The notes below the pieces were generated by a model. That model searched no databases. It saw nothing but the letters and a program-made list of their open reading frames with translations, and was not told the DNA's origin. A stretch of 64,000 bases of DNA from a bacterium (GTDB lineage Bacteria; Patescibacteriota; Minisyncoccia; UBA6257; 2-01-FULL-56-20). This document shows positions 25,587 through 27,093 of this stretch, in pieces (positions within the stretch are counted from its first letter, which is position 1; every line of letters starts with the position of its first letter). The DNA is taken from positions 2,239-66,238 of the forward strand of contig DAIDAM010000003.1 of assembly GCA_027310625.1 (NCBI GenBank). The letters run 5' to 3'. The position numbers were made by a program, and so were the translations under genes.

Positions 25587-26603
25587 ATGGCGAAGAAACA
25601 AAAAGAAAACCAATATCCCCTAGCAGATGTGCCATTCCTCTCAATAAGCCCGAAATCCGTTCATTTTATCGGCGTTCTGGGCATCGGCATAAGCTCCCTT
25701 GCCCAGTGGTTTATGGCCCGCCCTGAGCGCGGTCGAAGGGCTCAAAAATGGGCTGTTTCGGGGTCGGATACGGCAATTGGTCCTACCTATCAAATGCTCA
25801 AAAAAGCCGGTTTAAAAGCAAAAATTGGGCATAAAAGAGGCAATATTCCAGCAAAATGCGGTCTTGTTATATATAGCCGGGCGATAAAAAAGAATAACCC
25901 CGAACTTAAAGAAGCAAAAAGAATGGACATACCCGCGCTCTCCTATCCGCAGGCCGTCGGGAAGCTGACAAAGTTCTACAAAACGATTTGCATTTCCGGC
26001 ATGCACGGAAAGAGCACTACAACGGCGCTGACTGCGTTTCTTTTAATTAATGCGGGGTTGGATCCGACGGTAATCATCGGCACGCGCCTGAAGGAATTCG
26101 GATACAGAAATTTCCGCAATGGAAAAAACGAATTTCTTGTTTTAGAGGCGGACGAATACAAAGACGCTTTTTTGAACTACTCCCCTGCTTTTGCGATAGT
26201 CACCAATATAGACAAAGAACATCTGGACTATTTCAAAAACATAAACGAAATAAAAAATTCTTTTCTGAATTTTTTCCGCCGCGTAAAAAAAGGCGGAATA
26301 ATTATATTAAACCGCGACGATGCAATGCTTTATTCCCTCAAACGAAAAATAGATAAATTAAGCAAAATCAGAAACATAAAAACAAAATGGTATTCACTGC
26401 GAGACAAAGAAGCGGCGGAAGTAAAAAAGTATATAAAGTTGCCGGGAATGCATAATGTATCAAATGCTCTAGCGGTATATTGTTTGTCAAAGTTTCTCGG
26501 AATAAGCGGAAAAACCTTCTTAAAAACCATCTCCGAATACGCCGGTTCGTGGAGAAGAATGGAATACCGCGGCAAGTATCAAGTATCAAGTATCAGTTTA
26601 TGA
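25587..26603 (+). CDS. murC: UDP-N-acetylmuramate--L-alanine ligase, N-terminal and central domains (reading frame broken at 3' end)
   Basis: 'HFIGVLGIGISSLAQWF', 'CISGMHGKSTTTAL', 'LVLEADEY'. The ORF terminates inside the tandem heptamer AAGTATC x3 at 26582-26602. Confidence 0.8.
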   Translation: MAKKQKENQYPLADVPFLSISPKSVHFIGVLGIGISSLAQWFMARPERGRRAQKWAVSGSDTAIGPTYQMLKKAGLKAKIGHKRGNIPAKCGLVIYSRAIKKNNPELKEAKRMDIPALSYPQAVGKLTKFYKTICISGMHGKSTTTALTAFLLINAGLDPTVIIGTRLKEFGYRNFRNGKNEFLVLEADEYKDAFLNYSPAFAIVTNIDKEHLDYFKNINEIKNSFLNFFRRVKKGGIIILNRDDAMLYSLKRKIDKLSKIRNIKTKWYSLRDKEAAEVKKYIKLPGMHNVSNALAVYCLSKFLGISGKTFLKTISEYAGSWRRMEYRGKYQVSSISL

Positions 26604-27093
26604 CGATTACGCTCATCATCCGACGGAGATAAAAGCGACGCTTGCCGCGTTCAGGGAAAAGTTTCCTAAAAGCGAGATTGTCTGCGTTTTCCAGCCGCAT
26701 CAGGCGGAGCGGCTCAAGCTTTTATTCAAAGAATTTCGTAACGCCTTTGACGGCGCTGATAAAACAATAATTATGCCGATTTACAAAGTCGCCGGCCGCG
26801 AATCGTCGGTTAACTCCGAATATGACGCCGCGGCGCTCGTAAAATCAATCCAAAAAATGAAACCGCCGCGGAAAGTTTTTTATCTGAAAGACCCGAAAAA
26901 CTTGAAAAAGGCGCTAAAAATTCTCTTGTCCGATTACTCGCTCCCCTGCCCCCTTCCGCGTAAGTCGGCGTTAAGTCAGCGTGAGTCTGCGTCAGGTCCG
27001 CGTCAGTCCGCGGTCGTGATAATGATGGGCGCCGGCGACATTGTAAATTACACGGATTCACTCATTAAAAAAGACAGGGCCAGCAAGCGCTAG
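26596..27093 (+). pseudogene. murC: murC C-terminal domain in shifted frame (frameshift at AAGTATC x3; alternatively a sequencing or population variant)
   Basis: The frame gives '[19 protein letters not shown]...VCVFQPHQ...IMMGAGDI', the canonical MurC C-terminal motifs. Deleting one 7-bp unit restores a single ORF ('...[19 protein letters not shown]'). Confidence 0.7.

What the first reader, a model, noticed from the sequence alone, without database searches (positions are those of the whole stretch)
26574..26604. murC reading frame broken inside a 3x AAGTATC tandem heptamer
MurC N- and C-terminal domains are both intact but in different frames. The switch happens exactly in AAGTATCAAGTATCAAGTATCAG. 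With two instead of three heptamers the gene reads through (...[19 protein letters not shown]...). This is either a slipped-strand length variant (an on/off switch would be odd for an essential gene, so more likely population heterogeneity or an assembly/consensus error) or a true pseudogene. The same heptamer family (AGTATC/GATACT) decorates several intergenic regions and occurs in-frame in fmt (36003-36030).
Basis: seen in the sequence. Interest (0 to 1): 0.7.

Follow-up and report, generated by a model that had tools for sequence, protein, structure and literature searches.

The report
Seven-base repeat miscount breaks murC
The cell-wall gene murC of this uncultivated groundwater-type bacterium is split because a short run of 7-base repeats inside it has a copy number that does not fit the reading frame; the break itself is an ordinary slippage lesion (or assembly slip), but the repeat run proves to be an old, conserved part of murC in this bacterial group.

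Summary
Observation confirmed. (AAGTATC)x3 sits at 26574-26594. The murC N-terminal frame (25587-26603) stops at TGA 26601-26603, and the intact C-terminal domain continues in the +1 frame (26596-27093). Two or five copies restore a bona fide MurC.

New context:
- The site is a beta-hairpin loop between RRMEYRG and DDYAHHP. It carries a period-7 array in 35 lineages of Patescibacteria, usually 6 units (42 nt, 14 codons), with lineage-specific unit sequences.
- 33 of the 35 lineages are in frame.
- The array is identical in every member of the 10 lineages recovered more than once, at least 7 of them from different samples. This is not a phase-variation switch.
- A second Liptonbacteria MAG (L064) is broken at the same site, also with 4 units (28 nt).
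- Only murC is split among 29 window genes with comparators, and both halves keep every invariant residue. The lesion is therefore recent.

It is either a real null or heterogeneous allele (favoured) or an assembly error. Reads are needed to decide. Period-7 arrays pervade this genome, 26 against 1.65 expected.

The parts
25587..26603 (+). murC, N-terminal reading frame (Mur ligase N-terminal and middle domains), 338 aa, ending at a premature TGA
   Evidence: ORF list. It is identical to database protein P0002, which carries PF01225 and PF08245. tblastn with MurC of relatives covers 25596-26600 in frame 3.
26574..26594 (+). Three perfect AAGTATC units. The perfect period-7 run spans 26573-26595.
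26595..26601 (+). Degenerate fourth unit AGTTTAT. With the three perfect units it makes a 28-nt segment between the Gly codon of MEYRG and GAC of DDY. In-frame lengths seen in relatives are 36, 42, 48 or 93 nt (24 nt where there is no array).
26601..26603 (+). Premature stop codon TGA of the N-terminal frame
26596..27093 (+). murC, C-terminal domain in the +1 frame ([12 protein letters not shown] ... MMGAGDIVNYT). All invariant residues are present. This frame has no ATG/GTG/TTG between the stop at 26521-26523 and 26773.
26955..27012 (+). Second non-triplet array inside murC (units of 10/11 nt, GCGTnAGTCn; 21 nt = 7 aa), in frame, encoding RKSALSQRESASGPRQSA
   Evidence: TRF. Relatives carry RKSA-type inserts at the same place. 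The same module occurs in gltX at 21207-21288.
23832..25049 (+). murE, the intact next-but-one step of the same pathway. It argues that the pathway is in use.
   Evidence: TIGR01085 murE, 367.6 bits, above the cutoff of 257.3. Full-length match to relatives.
35998..36027 (+). (AGTATCA)x4 array in frame inside fmt, encoding VSSIRYQVSG. This is the same unit family as the murC array.
   Evidence: The fmt of L004 has (AGTATCA)x4 at the same position with no length difference.

Best explanation
murC carries a tandem array of 7-nt units in the loop of a beta-hairpin at the start of its C-terminal domain. The array is an old, conserved feature of MurC in Paceibacteria-type Patescibacteria, normally 6 units (42 nt, 14 codons).

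Seven is not a multiple of three, so only every third copy number keeps the frame. Here the array has 4 units (3 perfect AAGTATC plus AGTTTAT, 28 nt). The ribosome therefore meets TGA at 26601, and the C-terminal domain lies in the +1 frame.

The most likely history is loss of two identical units (14 nt) from a 5x AAGTATC + AGTTTAT array, by slipped-strand mispairing during replication. A gain of one unit from a 2-copy array is the less likely alternative. The event happened in the organism and recently, and it produced a null allele that was present in the sampled population and was picked up by the assembly. Whether that allele is fixed or a subpopulation cannot be told.

Shown: the anatomy, the copy-number rule, conservation of the array, its stability within species, and the intactness of the rest of the gene.
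Inferred: the direction of the change (5 to 3 copies), and that it happened in vivo rather than in silico.
For: - Exact array and frames.
- The repaired protein is MurC.
- Relatives carry period-7 arrays at the same codon position with different units: AAGTATC-like, ACATATC, AACTACC, AAATTCA, AAGTTAA, ACCTACC, GCATGTC and others.
- 35 lineages carry an array and 33 are in frame.
- The 5-copy product fits the 16 closest relatives better than the 2-copy product, 879.5 against 862.4 bits. None of those relatives has fewer than 12 residues here.
- A different species, L064, is broken at the same site. Its 28 nt (AAGTTCC AAGTTAC AGGTTCT TGTCTAC) is explained by loss of two AAGTTCC units from [14 protein letters not shown].
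- That MAG is named 47_66. If the name follows the GC_coverage convention I know from such groundwater MAG sets (own knowledge, not checked), it had about 66x coverage.
- Only murC is split among the 29 of 63 window ORFs that have comparators.
- All invariant MurC residues are present in both halves.
- A 30-nt perfect (CT)15 run is preserved elsewhere in the window. The assembler therefore did not generally collapse short tandem repeats.
- In an AlphaFold model of relative P0016, the array-encoded residues 321-334 form the distal part of a confident beta-hairpin (strands 317-323 and 330-336). This is a place where length changes are tolerated.
- The PDB MurC 9ir5 aligns TVDGVTII to this segment.
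Against: - No reads and no second assembly of the same species are available. The only database protein at about 100% identity is the truncated one, P0002.
- MurC is normally indispensable, so a null allele as the consensus is uncomfortable.
- The perfect period-7 run is 23 nt. That is exactly what a 37-nt run (5 copies) would collapse to in a de Bruijn graph at k = 20-23 (own reasoning). The other longest perfect heptamer run in the window (62421-62443) is also 23 nt.
- Arrays are identical in every lineage recovered more than once. Slippage here is therefore rare, which makes catching a real slipped allele less likely a priori.
Confidence: 0.55

Rival explanations
1. Assembly or consensus artefact. 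The organism has an in-frame array (most likely 5 copies). The assembler collapsed the perfect repeat, or chose a minor or chimeric path at a strain-variable site.
For: - The perfect run length of 23 nt equals the collapse product of a 37-nt run at k = 20-23 (own reasoning).
- The second longest perfect heptamer run in the window is also 23 nt.
- The gene is otherwise flawless and its neighbours are intact.
- In-frame arrays are the rule: 33 of 35 lineages.
- Other assemblies keep perfect heptamer runs of 31-34 nt (L002, L004 fmt, L016). Longer perfect runs therefore do exist in nature.
Against: - (CT)15, a 30-nt perfect run, is preserved in the same contig. Since k-mers up to 28 nt repeat inside that run, this implies an effective k of at least 29 (own reasoning). 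At k of 29 or more, a 37-nt heptamer run would collapse to 30 nt or not at all, never to 23.
- The array (28-42 nt) is much shorter than an Illumina read or the final k of the usual assemblers.
- L064 cannot be explained by collapse at k of 21 or more, because its remaining perfect run is only 13 nt.
- No other gene in the window is frame-broken.
Confidence: 0.3
2. Adaptive phase variation. The heptamer array would be a contingency locus that switches MurC, and thus peptidoglycan synthesis, on and off by slippage, as in neuO of E. coli K1.
For: - Same formal architecture as neuO: a coding heptanucleotide repeat that gives full-length product only at every third copy number (PMC13001214).
- Two lineages were caught in the OFF state.
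Against: - In neuO, 65.6% of 64 genomes are OFF and copy number ranges from 3 to 53. Here 33 of 35 lineages are ON and the length is nearly fixed at 36-48 nt.
- The array is identical in every member of the 10 lineages recovered more than once, at least 7 of them from different samples.
- Only 3 perfect units are present, a short and weakly mutable tract.
- The gene is a core biosynthetic enzyme, not a surface or modification function (established knowledge).
Confidence: 0.05
3. Recoding or split enzyme. Full-length MurC would still be made from the 4-unit allele by a +1 ribosomal frameshift or a 7-nt hop of peptidyl-tRNA from a codon to its identical copy one unit downstream. Alternatively, the two halves would work as separate polypeptides.
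For: - Both out-of-frame alleles (window and L064) belong to the same class, which needs +1 (28 nt).
- In any tandem heptamer, the codon 7 nt downstream is identical and lies in the +1 frame. For example, AAG 26574 to AAG 26581 would give ...[12 protein letters not shown] (sequence).
- A stop codon follows closely in the window (TTA TGA C).
Against: - No slippery codon can re-pair in +1 (UUA to UAU).
- There is no Shine-Dalgarno-like stimulator and no significant RNA structure (z = -0.75).
- L064 has no nearby zero-frame stop, so the two share no common shift site.
- The C-terminal frame has no ATG/GTG/TTG before 26773, which is past the DDYAHHP and FQPHQ motifs. A separately translated domain 3 is therefore not encoded.
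- With only two cases, the shared +1 class is not significant (about 0.5 by chance).
Confidence: 0.05
4. Established pseudogene. murC has been lost for good, and its function is supplied by another ligase, by salvage or by a host.
For: The frame is broken in the deposited consensus, and a relative (L064) shows the same.
Against: - There is a single lesion and no other stop or indel.
- All invariant residues of both halves are kept.
- murE, murG, ftsW and the M23 peptidase in the same cluster are full length.
- There is no second murC or mpl in the 64-kb window.
- The neighbouring Mur ligase is MurE, not Mpl.
Confidence: 0.05

Closest known systems
neuO of E. coli K1 (phage CUS-3 O-acetyltransferase): coding heptanucleotide repeat AAGACTC with a divisible-by-3 rule
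   Same: A 7-nt tandem repeat inside a coding region. Slipped-strand mispairing changes the copy number. The full-length protein is made only at every third copy number. The repeat is translated into a 7-residue peptide repeat (PMC13001214).
   Different: - neuO is hypervariable: 3-53 copies, and 65.6% of 64 genomes are OFF. It modifies a surface structure.
- The murC array is short (4-7 units) and almost always in frame (33 of 35 lineages).
- It is identical across assemblies of the same species.
- It sits in an essential biosynthetic enzyme.
Long simple sequence repeats of prokaryotes, heptanucleotide class (Mrazek et al. 2007, as summarised in PMC4679880; also PMC4692102)
   Same: Genome-wide excess of period-7 tandem repeats: 26 arrays against 1.65 expected in the window, about 22 per 64 kb in relatives, and 0.4 in Clostridia-type controls. 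Polymerase slippage is the proposed origin.
   Different: - I found no paper describing these for the Candidate Phyla Radiation.
- Here many arrays lie inside housekeeping genes (murC, fmt, trmD). Non-triplet repeats are expected to be avoided in such genes.
Intergenic TAACTGA direct repeats of marine Beggiatoaceae, cyanobacteria and Bacteroidetes (MacGregor 2015, PMC4679880)
   Same: The window's intergenic arrays are TAACTGA-like (TAACTGA, TGACTGA, TAACTAG, CTGATTA). They lie in forward orientation, end 0-8 nt before the start codon, and have no Shine-Dalgarno sequence (abstract).
   Different: The murC array has a different, stop-free unit (AAGTATC) and is translated. The organism is a Patescibacterium, a group not listed in that paper.
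prfB-type programmed +1 frameshifting
   Same: A +1 shift is needed, and a UGA followed by C lies at the end of the zero frame in the window.
   Different: There is no re-pairing P-site codon and no upstream Shine-Dalgarno sequence. The context is not conserved in L064. In 33 of 35 lineages the gene is simply in frame.

Membership tests
MurC, UDP-N-acetylmuramate--L-alanine ligase (TIGR01082) | Whole-protein score above the curated cutoff | tested here: met
   The repaired (2-copy) protein scores 363.3 bits against a cutoff of 335.1. The next best family is far below its own cutoff.
MurC, UDP-N-acetylmuramate--L-alanine ligase (TIGR01082) | Three Mur-ligase domains (PF01225, PF08245, PF02875) and conserved motifs (GKTT-type P-loop, DDYAHHP, FQPH) | tested here: met
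   P0002 carries PF01225 and PF08245. Full-length relatives carry all three domains. The invariant columns H140 G141 K142 S143 T144 T145, D337 D338 Y339 H341 H342 P343 and F366 Q367 P368 H369 are all present.
MurC, UDP-N-acetylmuramate--L-alanine ligase (TIGR01082) | One uninterrupted reading frame | tested here: not met
   The frame changes inside the array and a stop follows at 26601-26603.
SSR-driven phase-variable (contingency) gene, neuO type | Non-triplet tandem repeat inside the coding region, with full-length product only at certain copy numbers | tested here: met
   2 and 5 copies are open; 1, 3 and 4 are closed.
SSR-driven phase-variable (contingency) gene, neuO type | Copy number differs between isolates or populations of one species, with a large OFF fraction | tested here: not met
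   In all 10 lineages recovered in 2-6 assemblies the array is identical. 33 of 35 lineages are in frame. For comparison, 65.6% of neuO genomes are OFF.
SSR-driven phase-variable (contingency) gene, neuO type | Within-population mixture of copy numbers | not testable with these tools
   This needs the reads of the source sample.
Programmed +1 ribosomal frameshift site (prfB type) | P-site codon whose tRNA can re-pair in +1, a slow A-site codon, and an upstream Shine-Dalgarno-like stimulator, all conserved among carriers | tested here: not met
   The window reads AGU UUA UGA C with no re-pairing and no SD. L064 has CUA CGA C and no nearby stop. The RNA fold z-score is -0.75.
Heptanucleotide long simple sequence repeats (Mrazek 2007 class) | Tandem 7-nt units in significant excess over expectation for the genome's composition | tested here: met
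   Period 7: 26 arrays against 1.65 in simulations. Period 14: 9 against 0.3. The perfect runs are absent from simulations.
TAACTGA-type repeats upstream of start codons (MacGregor 2015) | Direct repeats of TAACTGA or near variants ending within a few nt of a start codon, with no SD | tested here: met
   This holds for the intergenic arrays at 4171-4204, 30242-30277, 34529-34565, 56438-56490 and others. The murC array itself is not of this kind, because its unit is AAGTATC and it is coding.

The most novel reading that the evidence does not exclude
Out-of-frame heptamer alleles of essential genes are tolerated in these bacteria because ribosomes re-register on the repeat. In a tandem heptamer, every codon recurs 7 nt downstream in the +1 frame. 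A one-unit hop of peptidyl-tRNA (or an equivalent +1 event) would still yield full-length MurC from the 4-unit alleles seen in both the window and L064. Non-triplet coding repeats would then be a buffered, evolvable source of protein insertions in Patescibacteria.
Probability: 0.04. Interest if true: 0.85.

Novelty: new member of a known kind. Interest (0 to 1): 0.45.

Why it matters
For this genome, the practical point is that murC should not be scored as lost. It is one slippage step away from intact. Metabolic reconstructions of such MAGs should treat breaks inside heptamer arrays with suspicion.

The broader point is more interesting. A non-triplet microsatellite is embedded in an essential gene and has been kept at the same codon position across a large part of the Patescibacteria. 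Its units are homogenised within each lineage but differ between lineages. The same genomes are full of period-7 arrays, both as in-frame protein insertions (murC, fmt, trmD) and as TAACTGA-like tracts abutting start codons.

I found no description of this for the Candidate Phyla Radiation. It offers a concrete, testable route by which their many protein insertions could arise. It also extends an unexplained repeat system upstream of start codons, known from Beggiatoaceae and cyanobacteria, to a new phylum.

Tried and rejected
- **Exact look-up of the source contig.** The truncated protein was looked up twice and its cluster once. The protein is in the database (one NCBI contig of 136,897 bp), but no contig or accession could be retrieved.
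- **Search for a same-species intact allele.** The best full-length hit to the window's MurC is 67% identical, and to L064's MurC 71%. No within-species comparison is possible for either broken gene.
- **Pattern scans.** The window's genome is absent from both the genome and metagenome collections.
- **Independent translation of the C-terminal domain.** Rejected, because that frame has no ATG/GTG/TTG before 26773. The ATG at 26600 that overlaps the TGA is in the third frame.
- **UGA reassignment.** Reading through the stop gives a frame with no MurC similarity (RLRSSSDGDK...).
- **RNA structure as a frameshift stimulator.** z = -0.75.
- **Inverted repeats around the array.** None found.
- **General de Bruijn collapse at k of about 21.** Weakened by the preserved (CT)15 run, and it cannot explain L064.
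- **Other frame-broken genes in the window.** None were found among the 29 of 63 ORFs with comparators. The other 34 ORFs were not tested this way.
- **tRNA and Rfam scans** found nothing relevant to the locus.
- **Literature.** Four searches found no description of heptamer arrays in CPR genomes or in murC.
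Full report
**1. The observation**

The window reads ...CGC GGC AAGTATC AAGTATC AAGTATC AGTTTAT GAC GAT TAC... Three perfect AAGTATC units lie at 26574-26594. TRF reports 26573-26595, period 7, 100% matches.

The ORF 25587..26603 ends ...RRMEYRGKYQVSSISL*. The frame opening at 26596 continues [23 protein letters not shown]... to the stop at 27091-27093.

Rebuilding the array with 1-5 copies shows that 2 and 5 copies give open proteins of 499 and 506 aa, while 1, 3 and 4 do not. The 2-copy protein passes the curated murC model TIGR01082, 363.3 bits against a cutoff of 335.1.

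At period 7, three perfect self-match runs reach the 11-match threshold in the window, and the murC run (16 matches, 23 nt) is one of the two longest. None reached that threshold in 20 composition-matched simulations.

**2. Whose gene it is**

- The closest full-length MurC proteins are 62-67% identical. The sources name them Candidatus Liptonbacteria, Paceibacterota or Patescibacteria.
- The only hit at about 100% identity is the truncated 338-aa product itself (P0002), from one NCBI contig of 136,897 bp.
- Gene order around murC is shared with relatives L002 and L004: ftsW, murG, gltX, M23 peptidase, murE, a small ORF, then murC.
- The upstream ligase is MurE, 367.6 bits against a cutoff of 257.3.

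**3. The site is a conserved heptamer array**

In an alignment with 20 relatives, the segment between RRMEYRG and DDYAHHP varies widely in length. It reads like translated heptamers, for example TYHISHITYHI and EYQVSGIKYHVS.

The DNA confirms this:
- L001 has GAGTATC AAGTATC AGGTATC AAGTATC ATGTATC plus decayed units, 93 nt in all.
- L002 has (ACATATC)x5, 36 nt.
- L004 has AACTACC-type units, 42 nt.

I then scanned two public collections for the flanks, ATGGAATAYCGNGG ... GAYGAYTAYGSNCAYCAYCC, with a variable gap.
- Species-representative genomes: 64 hits.
- Metagenome contigs: 76 hits.
- Firmicutes-type hits and some Patescibacteria have a non-repetitive 24-nt segment.
- Many Patescibacteria carry five to seven 7-nt units, mostly 42 nt. 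The records are titled Paceibacterota, Parcubacteria, Wolfe-, Colwell-, Liptonbacteria and "Saccharibacteria".
- Units are lineage-specific: AAATTCA, AAGTTAA, ACCTACC, AAATTGA, AAACTAA, CAATTTT, AATCTCA, GCATGTC, AAGCTAA and others.

Clustering all fetched loci at 95% or more flank identity gives 35 array-bearing lineages.

The encoded peptides follow x-[LFY]-[KQ]-[IV]-x-[NS]-[ST]-K-[LFY]-[KQ]-[IVA]-x-[VI]-Y.
- In an AlphaFold model of relative P0016 (mean pLDDT 90.9), residues 321-334 form the distal half of a beta-hairpin, strands 317-323 and 330-336.
- In solved MurC 9ir5, the equivalent segment is the 8-residue TVDGVTII.

The array is therefore an old insertion that lengthens a surface hairpin at the start of domain 3.

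**4. Frame statistics and stability**

- 33 of the 35 lineages are in frame.
- The two exceptions are the window and L064. L064 is JACQKT010000012.1, Candidatus Liptonbacteria NC_groundwater_1184_Ag_S-0.1um_47_66.
- In L064 the segment is AAGTTCC AAGTTAC AGGTTCT TGTCTAC, also 28 nt. Its murC is split at the same codon into ...RRMEYRGKFQVTGSCL... and ...[16 protein letters not shown].... NCBI annotates the N-terminal part as a hypothetical protein (P0121).
- Ten lineages were recovered in 2-6 assemblies, at least seven of them from different samples. One lineage came from six different JGI metagenomes. The array is identical in every member.

Compare the textbook coding heptanucleotide switch, neuO. 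There 65.6% of 64 genomes are out of frame and copy number ranges from 3 to 53 (PMC13001214). The murC array is not a contingency locus. It is a constrained protein segment that happens to be encoded by a slippage-prone repeat.

**5. Which way did it slip?**

The comparison points the other way.
- The 16 closest relatives have 12-31 residues here, eight of them exactly 14, and none fewer than 12.
- The 5-copy product KYQVSSIKYQVSVY lines up with KFQVPNSKLQALVY (P0016), KLQVLSSKLQALVY (P0010, L104) and EYQVSGIKYHVS (P0004).
- It scores 879.5 bits against their profile. The 2-copy product scores 862.4.
- L064 is likewise explained by loss of two of three AAGTTCC units from [14 protein letters not shown].

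A 14-nt deletion between identical units is therefore the more likely lesion in both genomes. A 7-nt gain cannot be excluded for the window.

**6. Real or artefact?**

For a real allele:
- The array is much shorter than a read.
- No other gene is frame-broken among the 29 of 63 window ORFs that have comparators.
- A 30-nt perfect (CT)15 run survives elsewhere in the contig.
- L064 is an independent case. Its name suggests about 66x coverage, if it follows the GC_coverage convention (own knowledge, not checked). Its remaining perfect run of 13 nt cannot result from k-mer collapse.

For an artefact:
- The perfect run is 23 nt. That is exactly what a 37-nt run (5 copies) becomes if a de Bruijn cycle is traversed minimally at k = 20-23 (own reasoning).
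- The other longest perfect heptamer run in the window (62421-62443) is also 23 nt.
- Arrays are otherwise stable.
- A null murC as the consensus is biologically awkward.

I put a real in-vivo allele at about 0.55 and an artefact at about 0.30. Only the reads can decide.

**7. Rescue mechanisms**

- The C-terminal frame has no ATG/GTG/TTG between its upstream stop (26521-26523) and 26773, which lies beyond the DDYAHHP and FQPHQ motifs. A separately translated domain 3 is not encoded.
- A prfB-like +1 site is not present. UUA cannot re-pair as UAU, there is no SD, the RNA fold z-score is -0.75, and L064 has no nearby zero-frame stop.
- One formal possibility remains. In a tandem heptamer, each codon recurs 7 nt downstream in the +1 frame. 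A one-unit hop, such as AAG 26574 to AAG 26581, would give an in-frame product in both broken genes. Nothing supports this beyond the fact that both alleles need +1, which is about 0.5 by chance. I keep it as the low-probability novel reading.

**8. Not an old pseudogene**

- There is a single lesion.
- All invariant residues are retained in both halves.
- The cell-wall genes murE, murG and ftsW are intact.
- There is no second murC or mpl in the window. The rest of the genome could not be examined.

**9. Genome-wide context**

Counts of period-7 arrays by TRF:

| Sequence set | Period-7 arrays |
|---|---|
| Window | 26 (1.65 expected) |
| Liptonbacteria-type loci | 22.3 per 64 kb |
| All Patescibacteria loci | 12.7 per 64 kb |
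| Clostridia-type controls | 0.4 per 64 kb |

Period-14 arrays number 9 against 0.3 expected in the window. The Patescibacteria loci were all selected through the murC site, which inflates their count somewhat.

About half of the window's arrays lie in the under 10% of sequence that is intergenic.

Those intergenic arrays are TAACTGA-like. They sit in forward orientation, end 0-8 nt before the ATG, and have no Shine-Dalgarno sequence. MacGregor described exactly this for Beggiatoaceae, cyanobacteria and Bacteroidetes (PMC4679880). That paper also relays Mrazek's finding that heptanucleotides are the commonest long simple repeats in prokaryotes, together with the polymerase-slippage idea.

Coding arrays occur in fmt (three or four arrays), trmD, two larger ORFs and murC. 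The fmt array (AGTATCA)x4 is conserved at nucleotide level in L004, although the two MurC proteins are only about 67% identical.

Four literature searches found no description of this for the Candidate Phyla Radiation.

**10. Verdict**

The break is a slippage miscount in a conserved coding heptamer array. The mechanism is ordinary, and the break is probably recent and possibly artefactual. The context is moderately interesting: a non-triplet microsatellite maintained in an essential gene across a major bacterial lineage, inside genomes saturated with period-7 repeats.

Noticed in passing
window 4171-4204, 13654-13717, 27452-27516, 30242-30277, 31855-31956, 34529-34565, 39442-39482, 56438-56490: Short intergenic spacers are filled with TAACTGA-like heptamer arrays. 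They lie in forward orientation, end 0-8 nt before the start codon, and have no Shine-Dalgarno sequence. This is the phenomenon described for Beggiatoaceae and cyanobacteria (PMC4679880), here in a Patescibacterium.
   Followed up: partly
window 3556-3660, 31025-31090, 7-34: AGTATC repeated at 10-bp spacing (4-6 direct copies) is followed by an inverted array of GATACT at the same spacing. This gives 21-34-nt imperfect inverted repeats in intergenic regions. The 93-nt murC insert of L001 has a similar layout, with a GTATC array followed by a GATAC array.
   Followed up: partly
window 26955-27012 (murC) and 21207-21288 (gltX); P0005/P0006 MurC C-termini: A 10/11-nt tandem array (GCGTnAGTCn) is translated in frame as RKSA-type repeats in two different housekeeping genes. 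The peptide NADDTQNNAE...RKSA of the window's GltX reappears in the MurC C-terminus of relatives. This looks like a mobile in-frame insertion module.
   Followed up: partly
window 35525-36448 (fmt): fmt carries heptamer arrays at its start (35510-35544) and inside (35695-35723, 35760-35792, 35998-36027), all in frame. The last one, (AGTATCA)x4, is conserved at nucleotide level in L004.
   Followed up: partly
L064 2275-2337 (reverse strand of locus; JACQKT010000012.1): A second Liptonbacteria MAG has murC split at the same hairpin by a 28-nt (4-unit) array. The N-terminal part is annotated as a hypothetical protein (P0121).
   Followed up: yes
window 35128-35514: An ORF of the 23S-rRNA-intervening-sequence / bAvd-like four-helix-bundle family is inserted between def and fmt. 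It is absent from that position in L004.
   Followed up: no
window 41927-41956: A perfect (CT)15 dinucleotide run lies in an intergenic region. It is another potential slippage site, and it was useful as a control for repeat collapse in the assembly.
   Followed up: partly
window 62197-62271: A tRNA-Ile with anticodon UAU. This is an uncommon way for bacteria to read AUA.
   Followed up: no
window 62403-62443: (GTCKCTG)x6 array next to the stop of ORF 62442..63926 (- strand). Its perfect run is 23 nt, the same length as the murC run.
   Followed up: no
alignment A1 (MurC relatives P0008, P0010, P0011, P0015, P0017, P0016; L002 GltX): Recurrent peptide modules such as GLALPVPNRIEGNN(A/V)E, EPAR...AGGSS and MVRQAHHK are present or absent at different sites of MurC and GltX among close relatives. 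This suggests further families of small in-frame insertions.
   Followed up: no
window 4212-5651 and 11901-13652: Two VirD4/TraD-like coupling-protein ORFs, one of them with a CxxC-x17-CxxC domain, flank large unannotated ORFs (8196..10064 and 10153..11880).
   Followed up: no
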